A stretch of DNA of 63,694 nt, filler included, from Collodictyon triciliatum (taxonomy: Eukaryota), in assembly GCA_043381765.1 (NCBI GenBank). It is 10 parts of 10 records of this genome, joined end to end, with 100 filler letters (N's around TTAATTAATTAA, not from the genome) between each part and the next. Parts side by side here need not be neighbours in the genome. Positions count along the whole stretch, not along the records: positions 51,051 to 57,322 come from JBHJMP010004586.1; 9 more parts are not named here. The stretch is one strand, 5' to 3'. This document shows, in pieces, positions 7,840 to 60,600 of the stretch. The translations under genes were made by a program, and so were the position numbers. Numbering within the stretch: the stretch's first letter is position 1; each line of letters starts with the position of its first letter. The notes below the pieces were generated by a model. That model worked only from the letters and a program-made list of their open reading frames with translations. It did no database searches and was not told the origin of the DNA.

Positions 7840-8685
7840 AAATGATTTAGAGATAAAACCATCCTGCTTCTCAGCCACACATGACCATGAGATTCCTTTC
7901 CTTTTGAGATATTTTGCAATCGGATGTGCATTCTAATGGGGCCAGAGCTTTGGTGAATCAATAAGCTCTCAGAAAAAAAAACTTTGCGTACGGTTCTTCT
8001 ACAACTGCATCTTTAGTGTTTTGGGTCGTATGAAAAATAGGGGATATAACTGCTCGAGAAGAGCAGTTATTTGCATATCACAGCCATCCGAGACATCAGA
8101 TGTAGACAAGTCTCAGCATGGAGTCACCATTCGCAGCCGGCTAGGCGCAATACAGTCAAAGACATTATTGGAAAGATACCATAGCATCACCCCGCGTTGC
8201 CGCGTCCAACCAGGCAACCACTCGCGCCCTATGTCTTTATACACCGGAATTTTGCCGCGTCATCCTTATAATTTCCAGATCAACCACGCGGCAGAAACCG
8301 AATATTAAAGACTCGCAACAAAGCAGCCGCGGCATAATGTGTAACGTAGAGTCCAATCACGCGATGGCCTTCCTCAACATACAATCATAGCAAGCGACAG
8401 GCTGAGGTAAAAGAAGCAGAGGAAAAAAAAGGAACAAAGAAGCGGAGCGCAGTGGTGATGCGACAACCAATATGAGAGGCTACCTTGTTTGAACCAAACA
8501 CTTGAGACCCGCCAATTGGCCTAATATTACCCCCCCCCCAGCACTATTCCCCTCCTTCAAACTTGTGTTGATCCCAATGTCCAGTATTCCCATTCAGCCA
8601 AAGTCAAACACAGTGCCATATCCTCCTTTGTCTTGGTCTTGACTTCTCCATGTTTTCCTCCCTTCGTGTATAGGACTTCCCAAGG

Positions 8686-10911
8686 ATGATGAAAGTAACC
8701 GATATTCCTTTGCGCGACTTCCCGGCAAGCGCAACTTCACACGCGTCCTCTTTCCTTTACCATTACAAGTGGTCTCCTGAAGCCCAGCAGGACTGTGACC
8801 AGTTCGGCCGGCCTTTTCAACCTCCGACCCGTACTGAGCGCCACATGAATGACGACATTCCCGACTTCCTGGAGATTCGCGATCTGCACAAAGGCCAACC
8901 AGCCGACCAATCAAGTGGTGACAAGACTGCCCCTGGTAAAGGGAAGAGCAAGAGCAAGGACAAGAGCGAAAAATCGGCCAGGAAGAGTGAGGTCCAAGAA
9001 GAAGAGGAGGAGGACAAGCCGTTGTGGAATATGCTCGTGGATGCTATCATGAGCGAAAAGATCTCCCTCACGGTGTTCTTGATTACTTTGATTCTTCTCT
9101 TGCTTCTCCGCTACCAAACGTCTTGGAAGGAACTCAGCAACGATGCCTGGTATACCATATGGACTCTCTACATTGCCATCGTTATTCTGGTTCGAGGAAT
9201 CACCGACCCTGATATCGCCCTCTTTGGCTGCAGCACCTTGTTGCTGTATCGCGAAATCATTACTCCAGCTCAATCATTCAAAGGCCTGGGAAACGACTCC
9301 GTCTTGACCATCGCACTCATGTTGACAGTGGCTGCTGGTATTGAGGAATCTGGAGCCATCGAGTTTATCTCAAAGTTTTGTCTTGGCCGCCCGTGGACAG
9401 TGCGTTCATCACAGCTGCGCCTCATGTTTATGAATGTGAGCCTTTCTGCCTGGACAAACAACATTCCTTTGGTTGCTGTCTTCATCCCGGTGGTCGAGGG
9501 TTGGTGTCAGCGCTACAATCTCCCTCCATCAAAGTTCATGATTCCTCTCAGCTTTGCCACCATCTTGGGAGGTCTGATCACAATCATTGGCACTTCCACT
9601 AATTTGGTCGTGAAAGCCCTTGCCTCGGTCCAGTATCCCGACATGAAGCTAGGATTCTTTGAAATCGGCGCTGTCGGTGCTCCGATGGCAGTTGCTGGAA
9701 TCATTTATCTTGCCCTGGTGTCTCCATATCTTCTCCCTGACCGCAAAGGAATCCGTGCGACCATGAACGAAGACAGTCGCAGATATACCCTTCGTGTCAT
9801 TGTCCGTACTGGAAGTGATATGATCGGTCATTCGGTGGAAAGAAATAATCTTCGCCATTTGCCCGCCCTGTTCCTTGTCGACATCGAGCGCAAGACTGGT
9901 GAGGTCATCTCTGCCCCTTCAGGCGATGTCATCATCGAGGCTGGGGACAAGCTCTGCTTCACTGGAGCTGTCGAGGGTGCCCGCTACTTGTGGAAGAGTA
10001 CTGACTTCGTCCCGTCTTTTGAAGGTTCCATCGGTATTGATGGGCACCGAATCCTCGTCGAAGCTGTGGTGAATGTTCGTTCTCCTTTGATTGGAAAGAC
10101 TGTACGAACTTCACGCTTCCGCACAGAGTTTGGAGCAGCCATTTTGTCTGTTCATCGTGGGGGAGAGCGCATGGAAGGGAAGATTGGCGACATTGTTCTC
10201 AGAGCCGGAGATACGCTTCTGGTTGAGGCACCACCAAATTTTGTGTCTGAGCACAAACACAACCCAGTCTTTGCTCTTGTCGCAGGTGTTGCTGGAGGTT
10301 CTGCGACCGCTGGTGCTCGCTGGAAAATGTATGTTGCTCCTCTACTAATGTTGACACTAGTTATTTTGAATGCACAAACAGGCATCGAGATTGAACTTTC
10401 GAATACGGCTCTTGGTTGTGTATTTGCTTACTTTGCTCTGGGTATCTTCGGAACCGTGGAAGCAAAGAACAGAGTCCCTGCTTGCACCCTCTTGACTATT
10501 GCTGGTGGTGATGGGATTGCTACCGCCCTGACTATCACTGGAGTTGCAGACAAGCTAGCTGGGAATCTTGTCTCTGGATTCGACGGGCTCGGTCCGATAG
10601 GCGGCATGTATGGTGTGTACCTTGGCACTGTTATTCTCACGGCACTGTTGTCCAACGGTGCATCTGCTACTCTGATGTTTCCTATCGCCGTGAAAACAGC
10701 GATTCTTACAGGAATCAATCCAAAGGCATACGTCTACACCATCGCTCTCGCTGCATCTGCCGACTTCTCCACGCCGATTGGATATCAAACAAACTTGATG
10801 GTTTCGGGACCTGGAGGATACAAGTTCTTTGATTACCCGAAGATTGGTCTCCCGCTGCAAATACTTTGCTGCCTGATTTCTGTTCCCCTCGCTCATAGAA
10901 TATTTGGATAA
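8686..10911 (+). CDS. SLC13/SLT-type (CitMHS-like) anion transporter with TrkA-C (RCK_C) domains, probable Na+/sulfate cotransporter; intronless, 741 aa
   Basis: Motifs LSAWTNNIPLVAVFIP, PSKFMIPLSFATILGGLITIIGTSTNLVV, TrkA-C segment SPLIGKTVRTSRFRTEFGAAILSVHRGGE and AASADFSTPIGYQTNLMVSGPGGYKFFDY. Confidence 0.92.
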   Translation: MMKVTDIPLRDFPASATSHASSFLYHYKWSPEAQQDCDQFGRPFQPPTRTERHMNDDIPDFLEIRDLHKGQPADQSSGDKTAPGKGKSKSKDKSEKSARKSEVQEEEEEDKPLWNMLVDAIMSEKISLTVFLITLILLLLLRYQTSWKELSNDAWYTIWTLYIAIVILVRGITDPDIALFGCSTLLLYREIITPAQSFKGLGNDSVLTIALMLTVAAGIEESGAIEFISKFCLGRPWTVRSSQLRLMFMNVSLSAWTNNIPLVAVFIPVVEGWCQRYNLPPSKFMIPLSFATILGGLITIIGTSTNLVVKALASVQYPDMKLGFFEIGAVGAPMAVAGIIYLALVSPYLLPDRKGIRATMNEDSRRYTLRVIVRTGSDMIGHSVERNNLRHLPALFLVDIERKTGEVISAPSGDVIIEAGDKLCFTGAVEGARYLWKSTDFVPSFEGSIGIDGHRILVEAVVNVRSPLIGKTVRTSRFRTEFGAAILSVHRGGERMEGKIGDIVLRAGDTLLVEAPPNFVSEHKHNPVFALVAGVAGGSATAGARWKMYVAPLLMLTLVILNAQTGIEIELSNTALGCVFAYFALGIFGTVEAKNRVPACTLLTIAGGDGIATALTITGVADKLAGNLVSGFDGLGPIGGMYGVYLGTVILTALLSNGASATLMFPIAVKTAILTGINPKAYVYTIALAASADFSTPIGYQTNLMVSGPGGYKFFDYPKIGLPLQILCCLISVPLAHRIFG

Positions 10912-12668: not shown

Positions 12669-12768
12669 NNNNNNNNNNNNNNNNNNNNNNNNNNNNNNNN
12701 NNNNNNNNNNNNTTAATTAATTAANNNNNNNNNNNNNNNNNNNNNNNNNNNNNNNNNNNNNNNNNNNN

Positions 12769-19050: not shown

Positions 19051-19150
19051 NNNNNNNNNNNNNNNNNNNNNNNNNNNNNNNNNNNNNNNNNNNNTTAATT
19101 AATTAANNNNNNNNNNNNNNNNNNNNNNNNNNNNNNNNNNNNNNNNNNNN

Positions 19151-19946: not shown

Positions 19947-20717
19947 AATTATACCCTATCGAATTTTAATATGTTTATCATATTTGATTAACCTATTTTT
20001 TCTATTTTTTCCATTTTTACCAGCATACTGGCTGCATTGGTGGATGCGATTCAATGATGAAAGAAATCTTTCAGCTCGGTGGCTCGCTTCCTCATCTTTC
20101 AGGCCCTTCCGTGAGGAGCGCCATACCCCACAGAGCCGCACCGCCTTTCCCGTCCAATGCTGGAAACAGTAAAGACAGCACTATCATCGGAAAAATTCTC
20201 AAATGCTCATCAAAACATCCCATCATCTCATCCAAGACATATTGCTTTATTTTCTCTCTATGTCAGATGCAGCGCCCATGCGAAATCCACCTCCGATTCC
20301 ATCGCATCATCACCCCAACCAAAGTTTGCTGATTTTTCTCTCTCATTGGATGAGGCACCATCCCACCATCCCACCATCCCATCATACCATCATCCCATTC
20401 AAAACATACTGCTTTATTTTCTCTCTATGCCAGACGCAGCGCCCATGCGAAATCCACCTCCGATTCCATCGCGCCCTGCAGGCCCGGGCGTGATCCTGGC
20501 CGCACCGCAGACTGCTTCAGCGCAAAGAGCCCGCGCAAGGCCCGTGCCACCAACAACAGCCACGCGAGCAGCAGCAGAGCCTGCAAAGGCAGTGCGAGGC
20601 CGACGCAAAGCGACCGCGAGAGGATCGGAAGGCAACGGCCCGGACGCGGATGCGCAGAAGCCCAAACGGAGGCGAAGCAAAAAAGACGGCGCAGGAGACG
20701 GCGATGCCGATGAATAA
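19286..20717 (+). CDS. TOP3A: DNA topoisomerase III alpha, 3' end (zinc-ribbon region and low-complexity tail), multi-exon
   Basis: Spliced reading PICPCPGCNNSFLILRKTKQTKYMIACKGSPECTYRWFFPEAVMEASVDNSTCPTCQPSPLHHLRLVLK...HTGCIGGCDSMMKEI matches the recalled Top3a C4 zinc region (CMGFPECRSAVWLPDSVLEASRDSSVCPVCQP...CIGGCD). Confidence 0.85.
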
Positions 20718-21182
20718 TGACACTGCAACAAAGCCTCTGCACGGAGAGAATTATAAATGCACAGGCGCCAGGAGGGTGAAAAAAGGAAAAGGAAGGCAGG
20801 TTATCTACACGGAGAAAGCACAGCCTGGATTATCGCGAGCGGCATTTATTGATTCGCGAGCTTGCCAAGCATCTCGCGCAGCACCCGCGAACGCAGCGGA
20901 TTTGCACACGTGTAATAAACAAGAACAGCGAGGAACGGCGGCACGAGAGCGTGGCTTAAAGAGAGGACAAGGAGGCGGAGGCTGCGCAGGAACAGAACAG
21001 AACAGAACAGAACAGAACAGAACGAGAGAGCGAGAGCGGGCGGCTGTGCGACTCTGCAGCTGGGAAGGAGAGAAGCCCCGGCGCACAAACACAGCGCGAC
21101 ACAACAGGCAGCCCACAGCAAGGACTCCGGACTGGATGGCCCAGTGCCGGCCTTGGGCGGGCGATGCGGCGACACAACGAGG

Positions 21183-22319
21183 TCACGTGGGCGCATCGGC
21201 CTGCCTGGCGAGAGTGTCCACCCCACCGGGCAGGCCGTCGTCGAAGTTGTCGGCCACTGAGACGCGGCCACGGCCCGAGGAGGCGTCCGGCCGGGGTTGC
21301 GTGCGATGCAGAGAAGGCAGCGGGGATATCGGCGTGAACACAGGCGGCTCGTGCTTGTCGCGGACCGGCGGCGTGGGCGGCCCCGTTCTGGCCTTTGTGC
21401 TTGGCGCCGAGATGCTGTGGGCCATGCCGCATGCGCGCGGCAAAGAGGCTGGAGGGGACGATGCGCGGGCCATGCAGGTCTGGCTCTGTGTGTGCGCCGG
21501 GGCTGGGATTCGGTGGCGCAGGGCCGAAGGCGTGGCTTCAAACAGAAGGCCCGGTCCGAGTCCGGCGGGTGGCTTCTTGTCCGGCGGGCTCCCTTGTGCC
21601 GCTGCTTCGTGGCTTGTGGGGCTTTGCTCCGTTGCTTTGGCCCGGGGCCTTTTGTGGTGCCCACCTTGAATCTCTGTCTCTGCATCTGCATCTGCATCTG
21701 TACTTGTATCTGTATCTGCATCTGCATCTGCATCTGCATCTGTATTTGCGTCAGCGTTTGCGTCTCTGTGTGCTGGTTCTTGGTCCGCGTTCTGCCGCTG
21801 CTCTGCCCCCGGTGTATCGCCTTCGTCTGGCTTTTCGTCTGTCTGGGGTTGTGTGCTTGTCGTGCGCGTCTTGCTGGCATCGTCTGGTTCCTCATTTTTA
21901 CTCGGCGTGGGCCTTTTATGTTACATTTGATTATGAGGCGTGATGGTAATGTAATTGGATATGCGCTATCTTTTTTTTAAAAATAATAATAATAATAAAA
22001 ATCAATAATAAGTGGCAATGGAGGGAGGGAGGGAGGGAGGTAATAATACGCTGGTTGTTGTAAGGGCTCTGTGTTCTGAGAGCTAGAAGCAGGAGAAAAT
22101 GTCAGTCCCTTGGTCTTTTCTCGCTCCTGTGCTACCTTTTCATTTGGTCCGAAGAAAATCATGAAAATGCTGTGTTATGGTTTCCATATGCCCCTTTTTT
22201 TTTCTATTTTCTATTCTCTATTCTTTATTTTCTATTCTCTATTCTCTTTTTTCTATTTTCTATTCTCTATTCTCTATTCTCTATTCTCTATTCTCTATTC
22301 TCTATTCTCTATTCTCTAT

Positions 22320-23647: not shown

Positions 23648-25361
23648 NNNNNNNNNNNNNNNNNNNNNNNNNNNNNNNNNNNNNNNNNNNNNNNNNNNNN
23701 NNNNNNNNNNNNNNNNNNNNNNNNNNNNNNNNNNNNNNNNNNNNNNNNNNNNNNNNNNNNNNNNNNNNNNNNNNNNNNNNNNNNNNNNNNNNNNNNNNNN
23801 NNNNNNNNNNNNNNNNNNNNNNNNNNNNNNNNNNNNNNNNNNNNNNNNNNNNNNNNNNNNNNNNNNNNNNNNNNNNNNNNNNNNNNNNNNNNNNNNNNNN
23901 NNNNNNNNNNNNNNNNNNNNNNNNNNNNNNNNNNNNNNNNNNNNNNNNNNNNNNNNNNNNNNNNNNNNNNNNNNNNNNNNNNNNNNNNNNNNNNNNNNNN
24001 NNNNNNNNNNNNNNNNNNNNNNNNNNNNNNNNNNNNNNNNNNNNNNNNNNNNNNNNNNNNNNNNNNNNNNNNNNNNNNNNNNNNNNNNNNNNNNNNNNNN
24101 NNNNNNNNNNNNNNNNNNNNNNNNNNNNNNNTTTTGTTTTTGTTTTTGTTTTTGTTTTTGTTTTTGTTTTTGTTTTTGTTTTTGTTTTTGTTTTTGTTTT
24201 TGTTTTTGTTTTTGTTTTTAACATTCAAATAGTTGCATGTGCTTTTTGTACAATCTTGTTTTCTCCTATATAATTACAATCTATTATCGGCTTCATTTCA
24301 ATTTGGTGAATTTCATACCGATTGCTGAATTCATAGACCCAATTATCGATGCGAAGACAAAGAGGGATATCATCACAACGAACAAAGTCAAAACACACTC
24401 AGCATCAGTCTCAGGGCTTAAATTCCCACCGAGTCCTGCCAAGTTTGTGAAGCCCCATGAGAGAGTGCGGAGGTACTTCGAAGTGGGTGACTATTGTTTC
24501 ATTTGCAGTGAGAAAAAAATAACAAGGAATTTCATTATTAGTTTATTATTTTCCGGAAAATATCTACACACGAAGTTGCTTATTTCGAGAGTCGCAGAAA
24601 ATCCATTGTCTTTGAATCCCTATGAAGGATATGCCACAGATATTGTATATGTGGCTTTGTATCAAAAGTGAAAAGCATAACTCAAATGCAACAACCAACA
24701 CAATAGAGCAACAGAAATGATAGATGGGTGAAATTTACTTGGATTCTAGATACATAATACCACGCGCATCCCACCCAATGAGCAATTACCCCAAACTGGG
24801 TACTCATCTGTAACACGCGAGATGTGTTTGATGTGGAAGCCCATATATTTACCTATTTTTTTTATCGATTCTTTCAAACACGGGTATGTTTTGTTAGAAA
24901 AAGAAGAAGGGGAAATTTCAAATAGAATTGAAAGTGACTAGCATGATTATAATCATAGGCCGACCTTGGCCAATCTGAGAAGACGTGTTAATCTTATCAA
25001 TCTAGGGACTCTTAATGGATGGCTGTACTTTGCATTGTTTATAATCAGAGAGAACGGAAAAGATGCAACAATATCGAGAAGAAACCATGAACGAAGATAT
25101 TTCTTTCCAATCGCCCTCCATTCTGTGATTGTCTGTATCAGGCGTAATATAGCGTGAATAAAACCCATTACCAAATACACTCGCAATTTTGTTGATTCAA
25201 ATTAAATAGTTATCAATGTGGCAAATTATAAATCATAGATGTGAAAGCGTAAGTACATCATTTTCATCCACGACAGCAGTCCGAAATATAACGCCTATGT
25301 TAATCATGAAGGAGCAATCTACAAACAGATCCCATACCATCCATCCACCAGTCACGTCAAC
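21183..25361 (-). CDS. Cyclic-nucleotide-gated/CNBD cation channel (6TM + C-linker + CNBD), 5'-truncated, with long disordered C-tail
   Basis: S4 LRVPRLIRLTRLLRLAK, S5 IAHWVGCAWYY, pore YLRTLSWGFTNLAGLGGNLSPETDAE, C-linker ILEDLPRDLKMEV...KVPLFRD, CNBD EMYFIGRGKV...GSYFGEIALL...RTASAQA. Confidence 0.9.
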
Positions 25362-25593
25362 CTGAACCGCATATTGTTAACCAATTAATTATGGTATTGA
25401 ATATATGATTTTCACGGGGGGGGGGGGGGGGNNNNNNNNNNNNNNNNNNNNNNNNNNNNNNNNNNNNNNNNNNNNTTAATTAATTAANNNNNNNNNNNNN
25501 NNNNNNNNNNNNNNNNNNNNNNNNNNNNNNNTATCAATATTTGAAGTATTTTAAAATCTCTTTGATATATAAAATGCCACTTAGATTCATATT

Positions 25594-31593: not shown

Positions 31594-32376
31594 CTTTTCC
31601 TTTTTCCTTTATATGTGAATATGGAAAATTTTTAATTGATTTCATTTTATTTTATGTGTTTTATGTTTTTTATGTTTTTTTATGTTTTTTATGTTTTTTA
31701 TGTTTTTTATGTTTTTTTATGTTTTTTTATGTTTTTTATGTTTTTTTATGTTTTTTTATGTTTTTTATGTTTTTTTATGTTTTTTATGTTTTTTTATGTT
31801 TTTTTATGTTTTTTTATGTNNNNNNNNNNNNNNNNNNNNNNNNNNNNNNNNNNNNNNNNNNNNTTAATTAATTAANNNNNNNNNNNNNNNNNNNNNNNNN
31901 NNNNNNNNNNNNNNNNNNNTTTTTTTCTTTTTTTTTTTTTTCTTTTTTTTCTTTTTTTGCATCTTTTCTTTTCTCTTTTCCAACTGTAACGCAGGGGAGT
32001 GATCGACAGGACTTATGTAGAAATCTATGCCATGTGCGTGGTGCTCTTGGAACAGACTCAGAACAAAAATCCTGCTTCCAAACCTCTGAGCCGGCATTGT
32101 GGCCATTGCTTCTCTGCAAGACAACGGCGTTTCGCACAGAACTTGACCAAGTATTTGACAGTTCTCTTCGTCCACACAGCCTCGGTGGGCCCCTTTTGAT
32201 ACTTTAATAGATGCAAAGACTGTTTGTATGAAATCGTTCTTGCGCTATGGTTTAGTTTATAATATGTTTTTTTGCTTGATATCGCACCATTGGAAACTAT
32301 CCACTTATGTTACATCGGAGTACGCAGAGCACAAATACGCTCCAACTGTTTGTTGTATTACCGGGTAGTGGTACTT

Positions 32377-37949: not shown

Positions 37950-38516
37950 TGCTTAACCACTTCTCTTCTCTTCCTTTTGCTTGGCTTCGCTTTTCTCTTT
38001 TGCTTTGCTATCCCTGCGGCTTAGAGCTGAGCCAGGTCGTACGTTGTGGAGTAAAGAGTTTTAGTGTTTTTGTTTTTGTTTTTGTTTTTGTTTTTGTTTT
38101 TGTTTTTGTTTTTGTTTTTGTTTTTGTTTTTGTTTTTGTTTTTGTTTTTGTTTTTGTTTTTGTTTTTGTTTTTAGTTTTTAGTTTTATTCTTTTTTATTN
38201 NNNNNNNNNNNNNNNNNNNNNNNNNNNNNNNNNNNNNNNNNNNTTAATTAATTAANNNNNNNNNNNNNNNNNNNNNNNNNNNNNNNNNNNNNNNNNNNNT
38301 AAAACAAAAATAAAACAAAAATAAAACAAAAATAAAACAAAAATAAAACAAAAATAAAACAAAAATAAAACAAAAATAAAACAATAAAACAAAAAAAAAC
38401 AAAAAAAACAAAAAAAAAACTCATAAAAAAACCCATAAAAACTGAAGCTACTCTTCTCTATTCATGAATCTAAATTAGGAGCGACGCCAGTGCCAACCTA
38501 GAGCACAATACAGTAG

Positions 38517-44032
<5,516 letters not shown>

Positions 44033-44677
44033 CTGCGTACCCTGGAAAGGATTAATCTCGGTCTCGGTCTCAACGACAGAGCATCAAAGAAGCAAACACA
44101 CTATGCGGTCCAAGGATTGCGCAAGTGCTCTCTGACGGAATAAAACTCATTCGAGCCAGATTCCCAAACTGATAGAGCTTATGTAAACCCACCAAGAAAT
44201 GAAGGTAAAGGAAAAGATAAAGCGTCAGAATCGGTCATTGCCCCGAGGCTCGATAAGAAAGAAGATAAATTCCAGATTTATATAAATCATCTTAATAATA
44301 CCAAAAGCCGTTGAATTGTAAAAGGCATCTCCAACTAAATTTAAATACCATACATTCTTTCATCGAAAATGGACTGTTTGAGTGAAACTTCAGCACCATC
44401 CAATCAAAGATCAATTCAAACAAAAAAACAAACAAACAAACAAAAAAACAAACAAAAAAACAAACAAAAAAAACAAACAAAAAAACATACAAAAAAACAA
44501 ACAAAAAAACAAACAAAAAAACAAACAAAAAAACAAACAAAAAAACAAACAAAAAAACAAACAAAAAAACAAACAAANNNNNNNNNNNNNNNNNNNNNNN
44601 NNNNNNNNNNNNNNNNNNNNNTTAATTAATTAANNNNNNNNNNNNNNNNNNNNNNNNNNNNNNNNNNNNNNNNNNNN

Positions 44678-44764: not shown

Positions 44765-46269
44765 TGGGGAAAAGGATGGGTGAAGAACTTGAACAATACA
44801 ACGAAACAGAGAAAGACATTAGTTACATGAATCACCCACGGATAGGGCAGCAAAAAAAAAATGTCACATTGATGGAATTTGTACAATCCTGAGACAGGTC
44901 GACAAGTGTCAACCACCAAAATTCAATCTTTTGTGAAATTCTTGATTTTAGCGTATAATCTATATATCACTAGCAAATATTCTAGTCGTCACTGGATATG
45001 ACTATAAATTTTGAACTTATTTGTGTATATAATATAAATTCCATAATTGTATACAGAAGCAATCGATATAGCGCGTTCATTTCCCAAACACAGCTCTCAC
45101 ACTTGTGGAATTTAAGTACAAATCTAATATAATAATAGAATGAATTTTTTCGCCCTTATTGTGTATGTCTTTATTCACCTATTTCATATTTTATATAATT
45201 AATCACAACTCTTCGGCCTACAGAATGGGAATGTGCTGCCTTACGTTACCACACAAAAGGAATAGACTGAAACGACATGGAATTAAAATGATCATAATTG
45301 TATCGATCAATGACCAATAACACATATGTTGTTTTCATTAATTCGAAGCAAAGTCTTTCATATTATTTGCAAATTTATTTAACATAATTTCCGCATATAG
45401 AAATGACGTCACGCGAGTTGTCACCCGTTGTTTTCAGGAATCTGCCGCCTTGATTTCTCCCAACGCAGTCTCCTGAAGCATCGGGCTAAGTGATTCCTTC
45501 GCATGCGGGACGCAGACAATCTAGACACTCACAAGACCGGCCTCCTGCCTCTTTTCCGTCCATTAGAATCTGAAACGCTTGAGCATTGAGCACATTGTTG
45601 ACTTTATTTATTTTTTTATTTTTTTTATTTTTTTATNNNNNNNNNNNNNNNNNNNNNNNNNNNNNNNNNNNNNNNNNNNNNNNNNNNNNNNNNNNNNNNN
45701 NNNNNNNNNNNNNNNNNNNNNNNNNNNNNNNNNNNNNNNNNNNNNNNNNNNNNNNNNNNNNNNNNNNNNNNNNNNNNNNNNNNNNNNNNNNNNNNNNNNN
45801 NNNNNNNNNNNNNNNNNNNNNNNNNNNNNNNNNNNNNNNNNNNNNNNNNNNNNNNNNNNNNNNNNNNNNNNNNNNNNNNNNNNNNNNNNNNNNNNNNNNN
45901 NNNNNNNNNNNNNNNNNNNNNNNNNNNNNNNNNNNNNNNNNNNNNNNNNNNNNNNNNNNNNNNNNNNNNNNNNNNNNNNNNNNNNNNNNNNNNNNNNNNN
46001 NNNNNNNNNNNNNNNNNNNNNNNNNNNNNNNNNNNNNNNNNNNNNNNNNNNNNNNNNNNNNNNNNNNNNNNNNNNNNNNNNNNNNNNNNNNNNNNNNNNN
46101 NNNNNNNNNNNNNNNNNNNNNNNNNNNNNNNNNNNNNNNNNNNNNNNNNNNNNNNNNNNNNNNNNNNNNNNNNNNNNNNNNNNNNNNNNNNNNNNNNNNN
46201 NNNNNNNNNNNNNNNNNNNNNNNNNNNNNNNNNNNNNNNNNNNNNNNNNNNNNNNTGTATAAAACCAGA

Positions 46270-50915: not shown

Positions 50916-51269
50916 TTCGCCCAGTGTGGCCCGGCGCTCTGCCTATGAGCNNNNNNNNNNNNNNNNNNNNNNNNNNNNNNNNNNNNNNNNNNNNTTAATT
51001 AATTAANNNNNNNNNNNNNNNNNNNNNNNNNNNNNNNNNNNNNNNNNNNNGCGGCGGGCTTCGGCGTCCCTTCCCTTCGCTTTCGCTTTTTTTTTTTTTT
51101 TTTTTTTTTTGCAGCAGTCGGCCAGTCGCCAACCAGTCTCGAGTCTCGAGTCGAGTCGACCAGCCAATGTTGTCTGCAACACTCAGCTACTCGCACAAGC
51201 AACGCAACGCGGACTCACGAGCACACCTGCACCCACGAGCACGCACACTCCTGCACGCACAAGACTCGA

Positions 51270-51432
51270 ACGCCTGCAAAGGAACTCCACTATGCCGGAA
51301 TACGACGAAGTCTGCATGAGACCCGAAAACCCGCAAAGGCTCTCCACTATGCCGAAATACGACGATGTCTACTTCACAAGAACCGCAAAGGTTCTACATT
51401 ACGCCGAAATACGATGAAGGCTGCTTCACATA
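51270..51432 (+). repeat. Three ~50-60 bp tandem repeats (core GCAAAGGnnCTCCACTATGCCGAAATACGACGAAGTCTGC)
   Basis: Three degenerate copies are directly visible. Confidence 0.75.
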
Positions 51433-52139
51433 CATAGCACATGGAAGAATACGAACTCGCTGCGGCAATGATGAAAGGTTCACTCACTCATTATACAAGC
51501 CATGTAACACCCTCACAGAATGAAAAAAAAAAAAGCTAAAATAAACATGGACATTAATGGCATGAAGAAGCAACTTTAGCATCCAAAAAGGGAAAGATGT
51601 ATTTTACATTTCGTATAATTATATCCATACATTTTTCAATCTGTGGAATTTACAGCATATACAAATTTTGTGGTGCATGTCGAATACTGTGCCATAAATT
51701 ATCCGAATATTTGCAGCAGGAATACACGTCGTGCATCATTGGGAGATATCGCACCTGGAGCACTCGAGAATGTTCTGCCTTCCCAATCACCACACGAGCG
51801 ACACACAGCCCAATCCGTCCATTATATGTTGAAATGGCCACATCTTCATTCGGATGGAAGATTCGCCGGCCTTTGTGGGATATTTAAGCTTCCTGTCAAA
51901 ATAACTGCTGCCTTGTGCCCATTCTCTCTCGCTACCTTATCACATCACTCATTCGCAATGCGCGTTCTATTCTCTGTGTGCACAACCGCACTGCTCTCAC
52001 CCGAGCAACCCCAGTCTGTGTGACTTGTCAAATCCATTCACAAAACAAATAAACACTGCAATGCACTAACATAACACAGTCCACTCGCCCACACAGCCCC
52101 AGAACCCGTCCAAACCGCTTTCGCCTCACTCTTGTCATA

Positions 52140-54555
52140 ATGGCCGACCAGAACGCCCTCTTAGGAGAGGTCCGAAAAATCGCCGGGAAAGACGACATCG
52201 CCTCTTTAAAAAGCTCTGAGAGCCTGTCACTCATCGGCAAAAAGTTGACATCTGTGCCGTGTGGTGTTTTCTTGTTAACTGGTCTGAAGGAATTGAATCT
52301 TCAATTCAATCAGCTGTCGTCACTGCCTTCAGAAATATCGCGTTTGACTGGTCTCGAAAATCTTTATGTTAATGGTAATCAGTTGCCATCACTGCTTGCA
52401 CAAATATCGTGTTTGACTGGTCTCACTGGGCTTAATGTTGAAAGCAATCAGCTGACGTCGCTGCCTCCACAAATATCATGTTTAACTGGTCTCACATATC
52501 TTGGTGTTGATTGCAATCAGTTGTTGTCACTGCCTCCACAAATATCGTATTTGACTGGTCTCACACATCTTGGTGTTGGTGACAATCAGTTGTCATCATT
52601 GCCTCCACAAATATCTTGTTTGACCGGTCTCACATATTTCCGAGTAAGTGACAACCCGGTACGTTTTTATTTATTTATTTATTTATTCAATTGAATTTCT
52701 ATTTTTATTTAAGTTGAAAGAGAGACTGGCTGACAACAAAACACGCAGATGGAGGAGCTTCCGCCACAAATCACAGCGCTCACGAATCTACAGACTCTCT
52801 ACATCGAACTCTGTGGAAGAATTTCCATAAAGAGAGCGCCGCGTGGTATCACAGCTCTTCCAGTATGGAACAACGTATCAAAATCAGACTTCAAATACAT
52901 CCGCGCTCTGCAGCTCTACGACCCTGTAAGCGCACCTCCACCCACAACCTCCACATGCAAACACACAACATAGAACACAACTAACGGAACTCCAGGTCAT
53001 CACCGCAGCAGAGGCCCGCAAGGCTGAGGAGGCCAAAAGGCAATCGAAGAAGCGCAAGGCAGCCGAAGAAACCTGTAAGGCTGGAGAACCTCGCAAAGCT
53101 GAAGAGGCCCGCAAGGCTGAGAAACTGCTATCCGAACAGGCCGACGAGGCCGCGCTTTTGACTGAGCTCCGAAAAATCGCCGGGAAACCTGACATCGCCT
53201 CTTTAAAAAGCTCCGCGTATCTGTATATCGATAAAAAAGATCTGACATCCGTGCCGTGTGGTGTCTTCTTGTTGACTGGTCTGAGAAGATTGGGCCTTCA
53301 AGACAATAAGTTGTCATCACTACCTCCGCAAATATCGTATTTGACTGGTCTCACAAGGCTTTGTATTAATGGCAACCCGGCATGTTTTTATTCATTTTCC
53401 ATTACATTTTTATTCATCTTGTCAGAAAAGTGGCTGACAACGATACCTGCAGATGACGGAGCTTCCACCACAAATAACAGCGCTCAGGATTCTGAAGGTG
53501 CTCTACATCAAGGCTGGCTGGGAACAGACCATAAAGAAGGCTCCGCGTGGCATCACAGCTCTTCCACTGTGGAACAACGCAGTAGGGGACTACATACACA
53601 TCCGCGCTCTGCAGCTCTACGACTCCGTAAGGACACATCCACCCACAACCTCCGCGTACACACAACATAGAGCGCGGTTGGCGGAACTCCAGCTCGAAAC
53701 CGCAAGAGAAGCCCGTAAAGCTGAAGAAGAGGCTGCGCTTTTAGAAGAGGTCCGAAAAATCGCCGGGAAACGCAGCATCGCCTCATTAAAAAGCTCCGAG
53801 ACTCTGTCACTCTATGGCAGAAATCTGACATCCATTCCGCTTGGCGTTTTCTTGTTGACCCAATTGGAAGTATTGGAACTTTGGAATAATCAGCTATCGT
53901 CGTTGCCCCCACAAATATTGTATTTAACTGACCTCATATATCTTGGTGTTGGTAATAATCGGCTGTCATCATTACCTCCACAAATATCATGTTTGACTGG
54001 TCTCACATATCTAGATGTTGCTGGCAACCCGGTATGTTCTTATTAATTTTCTATTCCATTTTTATTTATGTTGGAAGATAAAGCGGCTGACAATAATACA
54101 CGCAGATGGAGGAGCTTCCGCCACAAATCACGGTGCTCACGAATCTGAGGAGGCTACTTATTATTAACAGCTTCGATGTTATTAACATAAAGAGGGCGCC
54201 GCGGGGTCTGTCGAACCTTCCAGTGTGGAACAACACATCATACCCAGACAACATACACATCCGTGGTCTGCAGCTCTACGACCCTGTAAGTGCACCTCCA
54301 CCCACAACCTCCACATGCACACAACATAGAACACAACTGACGGAACTCTAGGTCGACACCGCAACAAAAGCCCGCAAAGCTCAAGAAACTCACAAGATTG
54401 GAGAGGCTGCATGGCAGCCGAAGAAGCGCAAGACAGCCGAAGAATCCCGTAAAGCTACAGAGGCTCCAAAGGCTGAAGATGCCCGCAAGGCAGCCGCCGA
54501 AGAGGACGTTACCCCCGTGAGAGCTAGATTTCTCGGATGTCTTCACTATCTATAA
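52140..54555 (+). CDS. Tri-modular LRR protein, ~658 aa; exons 52140-52658, 52749-52925, 52996-53379, 53453-53626, 53693-54031, 54106-54285, 54352-54555
   Basis: 23-aa LRRs (LxxLxLxxNQLSSLPPQISCLTG). Six phase-0 introns at homologous positions give one continuous frame; the last exon could instead splice further at GTGAG near 54517. Confidence 0.85.
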
Positions 54556-55277
54556 GGGAAAGGCGGTGGAGTCCGTCATGATGGTCCACAGGCGCATGCC
54601 AACCTAAAAGGCCATATGCTACCTTCACCCACTGCACCACTCCGCTCTTTCCTTCTATTCAAGAGATAACAATACCGACTCCCATTTGCGCCTCATCACA
54701 CCTTCTTGGCCCACTCCTCAGACTCAACAAAAAAAAAGTGTTAACGAGAGCATGACTGTCAAGCAATAAGAATTGTTTGTCACTGCCTCATTACCACAAA
54801 ATAATAAGGGCTGATTCATCTCTGCACCACACGCTCTAGTTGCTGAACACCTACAGATATGATGTGAAATATAATCCTTTGGTATTGTATGTCGCAAACC
54901 TCTTGACTTGTAGTATGGATAATCTCGGAATTACATGGAGTTGCGAACGATGGCTAGCGAACCAAAGCCAACATCTCCACCATCTTGCACAAAATTGAAA
55001 TAGGAATAAAAAAAAAGATGACAATCATGACATATAAATACAAAAAATAGTCGTTTCTTGTCCCAAAGTCTAGGTACGCTATAGATATTTATGGACACAT
55101 GATAGACTTGAACAGCATTTAAATCCAAGACAGAAAGAAATTTTGGTTCTATACATGATGCCATGAAACGCTCGATTAGCTTTTCAGCACCAATACGACT
55201 GCTTGACATTAAATACAAAAACGTATAATCATTCATTTCCCTTCATGATTTTTCCAAAATAATAATTCATATTATAT

Positions 55278-57211: not shown

Positions 57212-57621
57212 GTTTAGAGACTTTTTAGAAGAGATTTGAGCCAATGGCAAACAAGTGCCGTCCGCACTATCTTTTTTTTTTTTTTTTTTTTTTTTTGTGG
57301 GGGTTTTTTTTTAAAAAGAAATNNNNNNNNNNNNNNNNNNNNNNNNNNNNNNNNNNNNNNNNNNNNTTAATTAATTAANNNNNNNNNNNNNNNNNNNNNN
57401 NNNNNNNNNNNNNNNNNNNNNNGAAATGAGGCGAAAATGAAAAGAAAACAAGATGAGAAAAGTAGATATTATATATCATTTAAGCTTATCGTCGTTGGTT
57501 GTAAGTATTCTCTTTTTTTTTTCTTCTTAAACTTTGAATATCTCTGAATAAAGAGATGTCCAATATCGTTTCTTTTTTGGGAATAAAGATTACAAAACAC
57601 TTTTCGGTGTCATGATTTGCA

Positions 57622-60600
57622 TTATTCCAACATATTCATTTGATGCGACGTTTCCTTCTCTCCCATTTGGACTTTCGTATTCATACGCATTAGTTCGTGG
57701 TCTTGGCTAGATTAGAGGAAATAAACAGAAAAATATCGCTTTAGTTGTTTACTCTTTTTTTCTTCTTTTTTTCAATGCATACTAAAACAGTTAAAATAGA
57801 CTTACATTAGCCTGCTGGTTCCTCTTTTGATTGGGGTAACCTGTATAGGAGGTCTTGTAGAAGCGTCTGTTCTTGTTGGAGTTGGGCATGAGCGTTTCCT
57901 TTGATGATCTGCATTCCCGTGATGTTTACCCCCAGCATCGCCAGAACTGCCATGAGCTTTATTCGAAAGAGACGGAATGACAGCGATGATTAAGCGCTCT
58001 GGGATGAACTGAATCACCATTCCCCAGATTAGAGCAAAGAACCCAAACGCCACACACATGCCCCATTGCTCACTATTCAAGGGTTTGCAATGGAACACAG
58101 CACCGCCAAAGAATACAAGGAAGATCTGTTTACGAATGTTGTGGTTATATCGTGCGTCATACAGAAAAAATAAAACTGCGATGAGATGTTTCTCAAGGAA
58201 AGAAAATTCACCTGCACACCGAATGTACCGAACCAGATTACAATAAAAAGTTTGTTTGCAAGAATATTTCGAAATGGGTTGACTTCACCGTGCAGATTTC
58301 TATCAAGAAGAAAGAAATTTTTGGTTACTTTCGATTTCTAGGGACTATTGAGATACGTTCCATTCATATATTTAGAAAGCCCCCTAATTCGAAGGGATTG
58401 CATCGTACCTCGCATTAAACTCATTGAACAACTGCATCATTACAAAGGTGTTGAACACACAAGTCAAATGGGCCGATTCATCCTCACCAAACCCATCCTC
58501 CAAATTGAAGGAACTGGGACTGAACGTCATGGTCATTAGGACAACCAGCTGGTAGACAGACTATTGATAGGTTATAGTCCCTTGAGATATTGCGTGATGG
58601 TCATACAAGAATTACGCAGCGAATTGTTCATATTTTCCTTCTATTTCTTCTTTTGTCTCTCTTATCTGGTTGCCTTCTCTTCTGCTTTATATGAGTGATT
58701 ATAAATTACCTGTCCCAATATGTTGATGGCCATTCTAGCAGAGATAATCCCTTTGTCGCGGCCATATGGCTCACGGTTTAACAGCTCGTCGGTGGGGGGC
58801 TCAGTTGCCAGGGCCAGGGAAGCTAGTGAGTCCATCAAAAGATTGACCCAGAGGAGTTGAACAGCACCGAGTGGGGATTCCTCTTTGATGACTGAGCCAA
58901 AAAATGCCACAGTGATGGCAACCACATTGACTGTGAGCTGGAATTGGAGAAACTTTCCGATACTGTCATAAACGTTGCGACCCCACTTGACGGCTTTGAC
59001 GATACTGGTAAAGTTATCGTCCATCAGGATAATATCGCAGGCGTCCTATGAACACAAAGCTCCCATTACTTTCGGAATGAATAAGTAGGCCCTTTTTTCC
59101 CCCTTGTGTTCCTTGGATTATATAGTTAAAATGTACATTATAAAATGCAGATGATACAGCCAAAAAAATTACCTTTGCAACAGAGGTACCTTGGATACCC
59201 ATGGCAAAGCCCACATCTGCTTTTTTCAAGGCAGGTGCGTCGTTTGTTCCGTCGCCCGTGACAGCAACAACCTTTGCATATGTTAACAAGACGAAATGTG
59301 AAAAACTTCAACAAAATAAAATGAAGCGATGTGATAAAAGAGAGATAGACCAGGACAGATACATGAATATACCTGGCGATTGGGGTGAAGAGTGCTATTC
59401 AGAAGCCCAGTCACAAGAGTAAACTTATCGGCTGGGGATGACCGAGCCAGGACTCTCAGATGCGGCCAAATCTTGTCGAATTCAGTCTAAGAGCAGGAAA
59501 AAAAAATAAAGGTAAGAAGAAAAAGGCACAGATGACAGGAGTTTGCACTAATAATAATAAAAAAAAAAGTAAAATAAACCTGATTAATATTTCCGTTTTC
59601 AAGCACTCGTTTGCGAAAGACAGGTCCTTCCATAGCGGTGTTTTCGTCCATCCTTGTTTCAGGCTCAATAATACCACATTTCTTTGCGATGGATATTGCT
59701 GTGGTGTAATTATCACCTGTAGAAAAAGCAAGCGAGGAAAATGAGGTTTACGTGTGTTTAGTATGAGGCTGGATACTTGAATAAGAAAGAAGAACAAACC
59801 TGTCACCATGCGAACCGTAATTCCAGCCTTTTTGCAGATTCTGATGGCTTCTGGGACCTCTGGGCGAACAGGGTCTTCAATCCCCACTATTCCCAAACAA
59901 ATCAAATTCTTTTCCAAACTGGGTTCTCCATCAGGGTCAACCATGTCAAACACGCTTGTTTCGTTAGCTTCGAATTCCATGTAAGCAATACACAATGTCC
60001 TTAGACCTTGCGAGGCAAATGATTCGATCACCTGTGAGGAAAAACATTTATGTCAATAAAAAGGAATGAAACATAAGCGGATGCATAAGCTCATATAGAC
60101 AAAGGAATCATACGTTGTCCAGTACGTATCTTTTTTTGTCCTCCGTAAGCGGCATCAGAGTATTGTCTCCTGTTTTATAGTGGGTACATCTCTCAAGTAC
60201 GATTTCCGAAGCTCCCTTTTTCGTTTAATAAATTGTATTGATTTGGTGATTCTTTCTGAACACGAGCGAATGTAATCTCAAATACTATATTGTCGATTTC
60301 TCTCTATGGATGTTGATACATATTGGAAATGTACCTTGGTATGAATGCGATATTTATTACTTCCAGATTTAACAATGGTAGACATTCTTTTGCGCTTTGA
60401 GGAGAACGGATGGACATGAGCAACCTATGCGATGTCAATAATTTTAGATGTTGAAACATAAAGACAAAAAAAAAAAAGTTCATTCATGATTCGCATGATG
60501 CAAGTATAAGTCAAAACAACAACATAGACTGAACTCACGTCTGCATTTTCACGTATTTTCATGTAGTCGATGCCACATTCGACCAAAAATTTGACTAAAC

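What the first reader, a model, noticed from the sequence alone, without database searches (positions are those of the whole stretch)
52140..54555. VLR-like, triplicated modular LRR gene with hypervariable binding faces: candidate diversified intracellular receptor system
Seen: three tandem modules, each with an N-cap (ALLxE(V/L)RKIAGKxxIASLKSS...LTSxPxGVFLLT), a variable number of 23-aa LRRs (6, 2 and 3), an intron, a C-cap exon, an intron and an EARKAEE-type helical linker. The LRR framework is near-identical even at DNA level (cctccacaaatatcgtgtttgactggtctc). The exposed strand differs in every repeat: KELNLQF, ENLYVNG, TGLNVES, TYLGVDC, THLGVGD, TYFRVSD, RRLGLQD, TRLCING, EVLELWN, IYLGVGN, TYLDVAG. 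The C-cap has two sequence- and length-variable loops (ELCGRIS/KAGWEQT/INSFDVIN and VSKSDFK/AVGDYI/TSYPDNI) in a conserved frame. Known: this pattern resembles lamprey VLRs and the shuffled LRR exons of Ectocarpus ROCO genes. Inference: a rapidly diversifying recognition-protein family, cytosolic (no signal peptide, TM or effector domain seen), chaining several specificities in one polypeptide.
Basis: partly seen in the sequence, partly recalled or inferred. Interest (0 to 1): 0.8.

Follow-up and report, generated by a model that had tools for sequence, protein, structure and literature searches.

The report
Three-module intracellular LRR gene, fast-evolving faces
This is an intact seven-exon gene of a freshwater eukaryote whose protein strings together three leucine-rich-repeat binding domains that arose by internal duplication, and their predicted binding surfaces have changed faster than silent sites; nothing suggests lamprey-style gene assembly.

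Summary
Window 52140-54555 (+) is one intact gene of 7 exons and 6 phase-0 introns, encoding 658 aa. It has three tandem modules. Each has a short helix, a first LRR, then 6, 2 or 3 regular 23-residue LRRs, an intron, a "C-cap" exon, an intron and a Lys/Glu/Ala-rich linker.

The repeats are the ordinary intracellular SHOC2/LRRD1/Leptospira class (E about 1e-50). VLRs score far lower, at 1e-27. The "C-cap" is two further irregular LRRs (RSU1 match).

The canonical exposed xxLxLxx positions evolve faster than synonymous sites. My own codon-model fits give omega 3.7-6.6 there against about 0.3 for the framework (LRT 20-28, P below 1e-5). Parsimony counts are weaker (ratio 1.5-1.7, P about 0.03).

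The VLR features tested here are not met. The gene is complete, no donor cassettes lie in the 63.7-kb window, and there are no Cys caps and no signal peptide.

A wider family is only hinted at: one NCBI fragment and divergent short metagenome contigs. No genome is held and no RNA run was listed.

Verdict: a germline-diversified, effector-less multi-LRR protein, a new variant of a known kind.

The parts
52140..52658 (+). Exon 1 (519 nt). Module 1: start codon, N-terminal helix motif, first LRR ('LRR0'), five regular 23-aa LRRs and the first 10 codons of the sixth.
   Evidence: Gene model; Pfam LRR_8 E 2.4e-18 and LRR_4 2.2e-17; SHOC2 and LRRD1 matches.
52659..52748 (+). Intron 1 (90 nt, GTACG...CAG, CTGAC branch-like site, phase 0).
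   Evidence: An in-frame stop follows if it is read through. Homologous to introns 3 and 5 at 77-82% identity.
52749..52925 (+). Exon 2 (177 nt). 'C-cap' of module 1: the rest of the last regular LRR plus two irregular LRRs and the terminal ALQLYD motif.
   Evidence: A profile of the C-caps matches RSU1 LRRs at E 1.6e-4.
52926..52995 (+). Intron 2 (70 nt, GTAAG...CAG, CTAAC).
   Evidence: Identical to intron 6 at 63 of 66 aligned bases.
52996..53379 (+). Exon 3 (384 nt). Linker 1 (52 aa, K/E/A-rich, KKRK at aa 250) plus the module 2 N-cap, LRR0, one regular LRR and the start of the last LRR.
   Evidence: Pfam LRR_8 E 4.1e-5, below the curated cut-off.
53380..53452 (+). Intron 3 (73 nt) with a GC donor (GCATG...CAG).
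   Evidence: The homologous donors in modules 1 and 3 are GT.
53453..53626 (+). Exon 4 (174 nt). C-cap of module 2.
53627..53692 (+). Intron 4 (66 nt, GTAAG...CAG). It is open in frame and lacks the CTRAC motif seen in introns 2 and 6.
   Evidence: (ORF 53438-54046 reads through it).
53693..54031 (+). Exon 5 (339 nt). Short linker 2 (14 aa) plus the module 3 N-cap, LRR0, two regular LRRs and the start of the last LRR.
   Evidence: Pfam LRR_4 E 5.6e-15.
54032..54105 (+). Intron 5 (74 nt, GTATG...CAG).
54106..54285 (+). Exon 6 (180 nt). C-cap of module 3.
54286..54351 (+). Intron 6 (66 nt, GTAAG...TAG).
54352..54555 (+). Exon 7 (204 nt). C-terminal K/E/A-rich tail (67 aa, KKRK at aa 615), homologous to linker 1. 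Stop TAA at 54553-54555.
   Evidence: tblastn of exon 7 against 53041-53118: 69% over 26 aa, E 1.2e-4.

Best explanation
The locus is a germline-encoded, probably cytosolic or nuclear, effector-less protein built from three complete LRR domains of the SHOC2/LRRD1/RSU1 class.

How it arose (inferred from the anatomy): a two-exon unit was duplicated in tandem inside the gene. The unit is [linker + N-terminal helix + LRRs] - intron - [terminal irregular LRRs] - intron. Phase-0 introns keep every copy in frame. In-register gain or loss of 69-nt repeats then changed the repeat number to 6, 2 and 3.

What happened afterwards (shown): the exposed xxLxLxx positions on the concave beta-sheet accumulated amino-acid changes faster than silent sites, while the framework stayed under purifying selection. 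The two loops of the terminal exon also diverged strongly, but I did not test those for selection.

Function (inferred): each module has acquired its own ligand specificity. The protein would then act as a multivalent binding or recognition adaptor, with the three binding arcs spaced by charged, probably helical linkers that carry KKRK nuclear-localisation-like motifs. Diversification is evolutionary, through duplication, unequal exchange and selection as in plant R-gene LRRs, not somatic.
For: - The gene is intact, with conserved splice sites at homologous positions in all three modules.
- The modules are homologous to each other at tblastn E 1e-15 to 1e-28.
- LRR class: LRRD1 E 3.2e-54, Leptospira LIC11098 1.5e-52, SHOC2 8.2e-50, against VLR-B 1.1e-27. 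The alignment to SHOC2 runs to the C-terminal '...dnp' repeat. The C-cap profile matches RSU1 LRRs at E 1.6e-4.
- Selection, repeats: codon model with a shared synonymous rate over the 11 LRRs gives omega(xxLxLxx) 3.7 against 0.29 for the framework. The LRT against omega=1 is 22.6, P 2e-6. For the 8 internal LRRs omega is 4.5 and P 5e-6.
- Selection, control: allowing repeat positions 1-9 their own rate gives omega 4.7-6.6, LRT about 20.
- Selection, modules: a three-module star tree over 20 exposed and 102 framework codons gives omega 4.4 against 0.36, LRT 27.9, P 1.3e-7.
- Selection, pairwise: exposed positions have pN 0.54-0.67, framework pS is 0.30-0.46, and intron mismatch is 0.05-0.23.
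- Framework identity is by descent rather than codon preference. ATA makes up 15 of 41 Ile codons here and 4 of 61 in the neighbouring transporter ORF.
- No TM-like segment (maximum Kyte-Doolittle 19-residue mean 1.45), a hydrophilic N-terminus, and KKRK at aa 250 and 615.
- No non-LRR Pfam domain reaches its curated cut-off.
Against: - The parsimony counts give only a modest excess: dN(exposed)/dS(framework) is 1.48-1.68, P 0.03-0.04. Within the exposed codons alone omega is about 1.0-1.2.
- The data set is tiny, 5 exposed codons per repeat. The likelihood code is my own and uses a fixed UPGMA tree.
- Recombination or gene conversion among repeats can inflate such tests. That is a real possibility here, because the introns are more alike than synonymous sites.
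- Variable x positions between repeats are a generic LRR property.
- No RNA evidence exists. Module 2 has a GC donor, and intron 4 lacks a clear branch motif, so parts of the gene may be decaying.
- No ligand, localisation or partner domain is known.
- Both structure models were of low confidence (pLDDT 53.9 and 49.3), so the concave-face assignment rests on the canonical LRR register, not on a model of this protein.
Confidence: 0.6

Rival explanations
1. It is an ordinary conserved LRR scaffold of the SHOC2/RSU1 type that happens to be internally triplicated. The exposed positions differ simply because each repeat always differs in LRR proteins, and they are relaxed or saturated rather than positively selected. 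There is no recognition or immune role.
For: - The best matches are signalling scaffolds (SHOC2, RSU1, LRRD1).
- Omega within the exposed codons alone is about 1.
- The parsimony excess is marginal (P 0.03-0.04).
- Positions 7-8 are mostly the small or polar residues G, D, N and S, as in most LRRs.
Against: - With a shared synonymous rate, omega at the exposed positions is 3.7-6.6 and differs significantly from 1 in three set-ups.
- pN at the exposed positions (0.54-0.67) exceeds both framework pS (0.30-0.46) and intron divergence (0.05-0.23).
- Cap-specific searches found no conserved orthologues: one protein scored (E 1.2e-6, limit 0.01), none (limit 0.1), and 0 of the top 150 hits carry a cap motif. 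An old conserved scaffold would be expected to have them.
Confidence: 0.25
2. It is a VLR-like, somatically assembled or somatically diversified receptor locus, as the title of the finding suggests.
For: It has variable repeat number per module, a conserved frame with variable strands, and a variable loop in the terminal exon. This is a superficial likeness to the LRRV and LRRCT insert described in PMC3308329 (passages).
Against: - The germline gene is complete and open.
- No LRR cassette lies on either strand elsewhere in the 63.7-kb window (tblastn, blastn, 30-mer).
- There is no signal peptide, stalk or Cys-rich cap.
- VLRs match 20 or more orders of magnitude worse than SHOC2-class LRRs.
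Confidence: 0.03
3. It is a decaying or silent duplicate, a young pseudogene or a mis-modelled locus. The fast change at the exposed positions would then reflect loss of constraint.
For: - Intron 3 has a GC donor, and intron 4 has no CTRAC motif and is open in frame.
- No RNA run was listed. This carries no weight either way.
Against: - 658 codons stay open across 7 exons with homologous splice sites.
- The framework is under clear purifying selection (omega 0.28-0.36). A pseudogene would not show this.
Confidence: 0.08
4. It is the LRR part of a larger gene (ROCO, LRR-kinase or NLR-like) whose effector exons lie outside the model.
For: A GTGAGA donor-like site lies at about 54518, just before the stop (read). 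Effector-less LRR proteins are often fragments of larger models.
Against: - The first module starts where modules 2 and 3 start, directly after the ATG.
- The ORF has no in-frame ATG upstream of 52140.
- The flanking ORFs I scanned (47.5-50.9 kb and 56.3-60.1 kb) have no Pfam domain. Translations at 58.6-59.3 kb on the minus strand look like a P-type ATPase by my reading, not a Pfam hit.
- The introns modelled here are 66-90 nt, so a distant exon is unlikely.
Confidence: 0.04

Closest known systems
SHOC2 / RSU1 / LRRD1 class of intracellular LRR proteins (also the Leptospira LIC LRR proteins)
   Same: - The repeats are 23 residues with the LxxLxLxxNxLxxLPxxIxxLxx pattern.
- The first repeat is of the 'xLxLxxxxLxxxP' kind, and the last regular repeat is an 'NP' repeat followed by irregular terminal repeats.
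- There is no signal peptide and there are no Cys caps.
- Sequence matches reach E 1e-50 to 1e-54. RSU1 matches the terminal exon.
   Different: - Those proteins carry a single continuous LRR arc. This one has three separate, complete arcs joined by charged linkers.
- The framework here is still similar at DNA level.
- The exposed residues evolve faster than silent sites.
- No orthologue carrying the cap motifs was found.
Brown-algal LRR-ROCO candidate receptors (Zambounis et al. 2012, PMC3341825; Teng et al. 2024, PMC11378527; passages read, supplements not seen)
   Same: - Both are intracellular LRRs of about 23-24 residues.
- Both show positive selection reported or found on concave-face positions.
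- In both, an in-frame exon structure permits duplication, shuffling or skipping.
   Different: - There, each LRR is its own 72-nt exon and the LRRs are fused to a ROC-COR GTPase.
- Here, up to six LRRs are contiguous in one exon, the duplicated unit is a whole domain, and no GTPase or other effector is present.
Plant R-gene (NLR / RLP) LRR domains
   Same: The evolutionary mode is the same: a conserved framework, excess replacement change at the xxLxLxx solvent-exposed residues, and repeat-number change by unequal exchange. The plant side of this comparison is my recalled knowledge of that literature.
   Different: There is no NB-ARC, TIR, CC or kinase domain. The LRR subtype differs, and three domains sit in one chain.
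Lamprey and hagfish variable lymphocyte receptors (review PMC3308329, passages read)
   Same: Both have a variable number of LRR modules between terminal elements, variation concentrated on the concave strand, and a variable loop in the C-terminal element.
   Different: - VLR germline genes are incomplete and flanked by hundreds of donor cassettes.
- They encode a signal peptide, LRRNT and LRRCT caps, 24-residue LRRV repeats and a stalk.
- None of these features is present here, and sequence similarity is far weaker.
Slit proteins (four tandem capped LRR domains in one chain; recalled, not tested here)
   Same: Several complete LRR domains are chained in one polypeptide, each a separate binding unit.
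   Different: Slit is extracellular, with Cys-rich LRRNT and LRRCT caps and EGF and laminin-G domains. This protein is intracellular by its sequence features and has only charged linkers.

Membership tests
Variable lymphocyte receptor (VLR) system | The germline gene is incomplete: the 5' and 3' coding parts are separated by non-coding intervening sequence (PMC3308329). | tested here: not met
   The 658-codon CDS is complete, with six short spliceosomal introns.
Variable lymphocyte receptor (VLR) system | Many LRR donor cassettes flank the gene, in either orientation. | tested here: not met
   No LRR-like match lies outside 52140-54555 in the 63.7-kb window (tblastn; blastn word 7; 30-mer). 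VLR loci span megabases, so only the nearest 52 kb upstream and 9 kb downstream are covered.
Variable lymphocyte receptor (VLR) system | Signal peptide, Cys-rich LRRNT and LRRCT caps, 24-residue LRRV repeats and a Thr/Pro stalk. | tested here: not met
   - The N-terminus is hydrophilic and no TM-like segment is present.
- No LRRNT or LRRCT Pfam hit was found.
- Only 11 Cys in 658 aa, with no conserved Cys cluster in the cap alignments.
- The repeats are 23 residues.
Variable lymphocyte receptor (VLR) system | Somatic assembly or diversification in individual cells. | not testable with these tools
   Only short metagenome contigs were available. No clonal long reads exist.
LRR-ROCO candidate receptors of brown algae | A ROC-COR GTPase lies C-terminal to the LRRs. 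| tested here: not met
   No Roc, COR or other non-LRR Pfam domain reaches its curated cut-off in any exon, or at E 0.001 in the flanking ORFs I scanned.
LRR-ROCO candidate receptors of brown algae | Each LRR is encoded by its own 72-nt exon (PMC3341825, PMC11378527). | tested here: not met
   The LRRs are 69 nt and contiguous within exons 1, 3 and 5. Introns fall only before and after the terminal exon of each module.
LRR-ROCO candidate receptors of brown algae | Positive selection on concave-face residues. | tested here: met
   Omega is 3.7-6.6 at the xxLxLxx positions, with LRT P below 1e-5. The parsimony ratio is 1.5-1.7, P about 0.03.
SHOC2/RSU1/LRRD1-class intracellular LRR domain | 23-residue repeats of the LxxLxLxxNxLxxLPxxIxxLxx pattern, with significant sequence similarity to solved members. 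| tested here: met
   LRRD1 E 3.2e-54, SHOC2 E 8.2e-50 over query residues 27-173. Pfam LRR_8 and LRR_4 score above their cut-offs for exons 1 and 5.
SHOC2/RSU1/LRRD1-class intracellular LRR domain | Orthology to SHOC2 or RSU1 themselves (a single arc and conserved partner-binding residues). | tested here: not met
   The architecture is three arcs with linkers. No close full-length relative turned up: 0 of the top 150 hits carry the cap motifs.
Plant-type NLR | An NB-ARC nucleotide-binding domain precedes the LRRs. | tested here: not met
   No NB-ARC hit was found. The Atlas look-alikes of the terminal exon are plant LRR clusters only by language-model features, with recognition below the tool's reliability mark.

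The most novel reading that the evidence does not exclude
The gene is one member of a lineage-specific, rapidly diversifying family of effector-less 'poly-LRR' recognition proteins in a freshwater protist. Whole LRR domains, not single repeats, would be the unit of duplication and exchange. The all-phase-0 exon design, together with the in-frame intron 4, would let splicing produce isoforms with different sets of binding modules. That would make it an innate recognition repertoire built on a plan different from NLRs, ROCOs and VLRs.
Probability: 0.15. Interest if true: 0.65.

Novelty: new variant of a known kind. Interest (0 to 1): 0.4.

Why it matters
Fast-evolving LRR surfaces are the hallmark of recognition receptors in plants, animals and brown algae, but almost nothing is known about such systems in free-living protists.

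This gene gives a compact, testable case. Three complete binding arcs sit in one chain, and introns at homologous positions in all three modules serve as a rough yardstick for divergence. The exposed residues have changed several times faster than silent sites.

If the wider family and its expression are confirmed, it would add a domain-level duplication route to receptor diversity. It would also supply small, naturally diversified, Cys-free LRR scaffolds.

If they are not confirmed, this is simply a lineage-specific LRR adaptor produced by internal duplication.

Tried and rejected
- Whole genome: none is held for this window, so paralogue counts and partner domains could not be obtained.
- Broad homology search with exon 1: 84,329 proteins at E 1e-3 or better. 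The top 150 are giant generic LRR proteins, and 0 of the 150 carry any of four cap motifs, so this was uninformative for the family.
- N-cap searches: 33 candidates among longer proteins and 3 among near-length proteins, none scoring.
- C-cap search: 1 hit among 4 candidates, an unnamed 121-aa NCBI protein on a 677-bp contig.
- JGI metagenome contigs: the C-cap profile found 45 pattern matches and no relative. Exon 1 found 456 pattern matches, but only 2 generic LRR loci at 33% identity.
- Viral contigs: no relative.
- Prokaryote genome contigs: no relative for the C-cap or the N-cap.
- Sequencing runs: 5 runs hold 5-13% of the sampled words and no RNA holder is listed, so expression and the splice model remain untested.
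- Read laying: only short Logan contigs. Four near-identical pieces of 151-272 nt show 0 or 1 difference each. Of the 38 pieces laid, 22 are under 90% alike (X1 17 of 29, X2 0 of 1, X3 3 of 5, X4 2 of 3). A few joined forms look like paralogous modules. Nothing is long enough to judge repeat-number variation. Parts without cover mean nothing.
- Structure prediction: single-sequence AlphaFold2 of exon 1 (pLDDT 53.9) and exon 3 (pLDDT 49.3) was too poor to use. The linker came out helical at pLDDT 56-63 only. No fold search was run. The spliced protein could not be submitted because joined sequences are not accepted.
- Protein Atlas: the C-cap exon gave only plant LRR clusters, at recognition 2068, below the tool's mark of 2300.
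- Rfam: no RNA family in the window.
- Gene conversion confined to repeat positions 10-23 as the cause of the signal: considered and judged unlikely, but not excluded. Leu codons at positions 1 and 4 have pS 0.58-0.61, against 0.64-0.89 at positions 11, 14 and 21, and a separate rate for positions 1-9 did not remove the signal.
- Not used: complex prediction, because no partner is known.
- Supplements of the two ROCO papers were not seen. Their site tables might refine the comparison of selected positions.
Full report
**1. What is there**

Reading 51600-55200 and joining the frames at GT/GC-AG sites gives one intact gene on the + strand.
- The exons are 52140-52658, 52749-52925, 52996-53379, 53453-53626, 53693-54031, 54106-54285 and 54352-54555. 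The CDS is 1977 nt and the product 658 aa.
- The six introns are 90, 70, 73, 66, 74 and 66 nt. All are phase 0, and every exon is a multiple of three.
- Five donors are GT(A/C/T)... and one, at 53380, is GC.
- Introns 1, 2, 3, 5 and 6 carry a CTGAC or CTAAC-like motif near the acceptor.
- The ORF has no in-frame ATG upstream of 52140.
- A neighbouring P-type-ATPase-like gene on the minus strand also has a GT-AG intron, so spliceosomal introns are normal here.

**2.

- The protein has three tandem modules, and tblastn between them gives E 1e-15 to 1e-28.
- Each module starts with ALLxE(V/L)RKIAGKxxIASLKSS and a first LRR; 28 of 43 columns are invariant.
- An intron follows after '...NP', then a 58-60-aa exon with a conserved frame and two variable, length-variable loops, then a second intron and a Lys/Glu/Ala-rich stretch.
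- That stretch is 52 aa in linker 1, 14 aa in linker 2 and 67 aa in the tail. The tail is homologous to linker 1.
- TRF reports period 69 with 4.8 copies at 79% matches.
- The 30-nt framework word occurs 7 times at 3 mismatches or fewer, all inside the gene, against 0 expected in 100 shuffles.
- ATA makes up 15 of 41 Ile codons here but 4 of 61 in the neighbouring transporter ORF. The DNA-level likeness of the framework therefore comes from descent or conversion, not codon preference.

**3. What kind of LRR it is**

- Pfam finds LRR_8 and LRR_4 above their cut-offs in exons 1 and 5. No non-LRR family reaches its curated cut-off; the only one listed at all is YopH_N at E 0.18 in exon 3, far below it.
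- Against solved structures the best matches are LRRD1 (3.2e-54), Leptospira LIC11098 (1.5e-52) and SHOC2 (8.2e-50). VLR-B follows only at 1.1e-27 and VLR-A at 5.5e-22.
- The SHOC2 alignment covers residues 27-173 and ends at the same '...dnp' repeat that precedes SHOC2's irregular last repeats.
- A profile of the terminal exons matches RSU1 LRRs at E 1.6e-4. This places 'loop 1' on the strand and ascending loop of a further LRR that has lost its Asn and gained three residues.
- The 'N-cap' and 'C-cap' are therefore the usual first and last elements of the intracellular SHOC2/RSU1/LRRD1 class, not VLR-type Cys-knot caps.
- The protein has a hydrophilic N-terminus and no TM-like segment (maximum KD19 1.45). 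It has 11 Cys, with no conserved Cys cluster in the cap alignments, and KKRK at aa 250 and 615.

**4. Is the variable face more than the generic LRR pattern?**

I fixed the exposed class beforehand as the canonical xxLxLxx positions, which are positions 2, 3, 5, 7 and 8 of each repeat.
- Nei-Gojobori over the 8 internal repeats: exposed dN 1.34, framework dS 0.59 and dN 0.13. Within the exposed codons alone dN/dS is about 1, but that rests on only 2.8 synonymous sites per pair.
- Positionally homologous LRRs of the three modules (20 exposed codons): pN 0.54-0.67, against framework pS 0.30-0.46.
- Introns between modules mismatch at only 0.05-0.23.
- Parsimony counts on a framework-based tree: dN(exposed)/dS(framework) is 1.48 for the 11 repeats (P 0.039) and 1.68 for the 8 (P 0.031).
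- A codon-likelihood model I wrote (GY-type, F3x4, shared branch lengths so that both classes share one synonymous rate): omega(exposed) 3.7 and 4.5 against framework 0.29 and 0.28. The LRT against omega=1 is 22.6 and 21.0.
- Giving positions 1-9 their own rate, to mimic conversion limited to positions 10-23, leaves omega at 4.7-6.6 and the LRT at about 20.
- A three-module star tree, which has no topology problem, over 20 exposed and 102 framework codons gives omega 4.4 against 0.36, LRT 27.9, P 1.3e-7.

The terminal-exon loops, which were identified after the fact, were left out of these tests.

Caveats:
- There are very few sites.
- The likelihood code is home-made.
- Recombination among repeats is known to inflate such tests.
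- Positions 7-8 are largely restricted to the small or polar residues G, D, N and S.

I read the result as good but not conclusive evidence that the binding faces diverged under positive selection after the duplications.

**5. An unexplained detail**

Introns are better conserved between modules than synonymous sites.
- Intron 2 and intron 6 agree at 63 of 66 aligned bases, while the C-cap exons next to them agree at 136 of 168.
- Either the short introns are constrained, or conversion keeps parts of the modules alike while the variable patches escape or are selected to differ.
- Intron 4 is 66 nt, open in frame and lacks the CTRAC motif. Intron 3 has the GC donor.
- Whether module 2 is spliced normally, retained in part or skipped cannot be told without RNA.

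**6. VLR-like?**

By the review PMC3308329 (passages read), a VLR locus has the following features:
- an incomplete germline gene with non-coding filler;
- hundreds of flanking donor cassettes in either orientation;
- a product with a signal peptide, LRRNT, 24-residue LRRV repeats, LRRCT and a stalk.

Here the gene is complete. No LRR-like sequence lies elsewhere in the window on either strand. The product lacks all of those elements. The window covers only 52 kb upstream and 9 kb downstream. The VLR reading is close to refuted as membership, and no mechanism of somatic change is indicated.

**7. Ectocarpus-ROCO-like?**

In brown algae each LRR is a separate 72-nt exon, the LRRs precede a ROC-COR GTPase, and concave sites are positively selected (PMC3341825 and PMC11378527, passages read; supplements not seen). 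Only the last feature is shared. Here the duplicated unit is a whole two-exon domain. The likeness lies in evolutionary mode: an in-frame exon design and selected concave residues. Plant R-gene LRRs show the same mode, which I state from recall.

**8. Is there a family?**

- No genome is held.
- The one database relative of the terminal exon is an unnamed 121-aa NCBI protein on a 677-bp contig (E 1.2e-6, 57% identity). It keeps the frame (MEELPPQIT, IKRAPRG, LPxW, LQLY) and differs in both loops.
- Five freshwater or lake metagenome runs hold 5-13% of the sampled words.
- Laid on the locus, four short contigs (one each in X1 and X2, two in X3) show 0 or 1 difference. Of the 38 pieces laid, 22 are under 90% alike: 17 of 29 in X1, 0 of 1 in X2, 3 of 5 in X3 and 2 of 3 in X4.
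- One piece matches the start and the end of a terminal exon with 74 unmatched letters between. Another resembles a module-2-like N-cap and LRR followed by an intron end and a C-cap start.
- These hint at further copies in the same or related organisms but prove no number.
- All other scans were empty or gave only generic LRR matches at 33% identity.

**9. Surroundings**

The neighbours are ordinary genes.
- A CitMHS/TrkA-C transporter ORF lies at 8674-10911 and an NHL-repeat ORF at 975-2102.
- ATPase-like exons lie at 58.6-59.3 kb on the minus strand.
- None of the flanking ORFs scanned carries a Pfam domain, so none offers an effector for this gene.

**10. Most likely working**

*Shown:*
- The gene is intact.
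- It encodes three SHOC2-class LRR domains.
- The modules arose by domain-level tandem duplication with conserved phase-0 introns, followed by in-register repeat gain or loss.
- The framework is under purifying selection, and the exposed strand positions show accelerated replacement change.

*Inferred:*
- Each arc binds a different ligand.
- The charged linkers space the arcs. They are helical only in a low-confidence model.
- The KKRK motifs may direct the protein to the nucleus.
- The protein serves as a multivalent recognition or adaptor protein, with diversification in the germline over evolutionary time.

**11. Verdict**

This is a new variant of a known kind (fast-evolving intracellular LRR proteins), not a VLR analogue. 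Interest is moderate. Expression, family size, ligands and any immune role are open.

Noticed in passing
window 6285-6384, 12669-12768, 19051-19150, 25432-25531, 31820-31919, 38200-38299, 44578-44677, 50951-51050, 57323-57422: Paired runs of 44 N separated by 12 bases recur about every 6.38 kb. Three other N runs lie at 4999-5023, 23648-24131 and 45637-46255. The window holds 1920 N in all. The regular spacing looks like masking rather than biology. One pair lies 1.1 kb upstream of the LRR gene.
   Followed up: no
window 53627-53692: Intron 4 is 66 nt and open in frame, and it lacks the CTRAC motif of its homologues, introns 2 and 6. Retaining it would add 22 residues without breaking the frame.
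   Followed up: partly
window 52926-52995 versus 54286-54351: Introns 2 and 6 are identical at 63 of 66 aligned bases, while the adjacent terminal exons are about 81% identical. Between modules the introns are more alike than synonymous sites.
   Followed up: partly
window 51262-51430: A 52-57-nt tandem repeat of about 2-3 copies at 83-84% matches lies 0.7-0.9 kb upstream of the start codon. A T24 run lies at 51087-51110.
   Followed up: no
window 20001-22000: An island of 57% G+C sits in a region of about 30% G+C. It has overlapping open frames of 190-390 aa on both strands. The two longest frames were scanned and have no Pfam match.
   Followed up: no
window 8674-10911 (+), 975-2102 (+), 58662-59307 (-): The neighbouring genes look ordinary: an intron-free 745-aa ORF with CitMHS and TrkA-C domains, an NHL-repeat ORF, and exons that look like a P-type (Ca-type) ATPase with a GT-AG intron.
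   Followed up: partly
window 54518: A GTGAGA donor-like site lies 35 nt before the stop codon. No plausible downstream exon was seen within 1.7 kb.
   Followed up: partly
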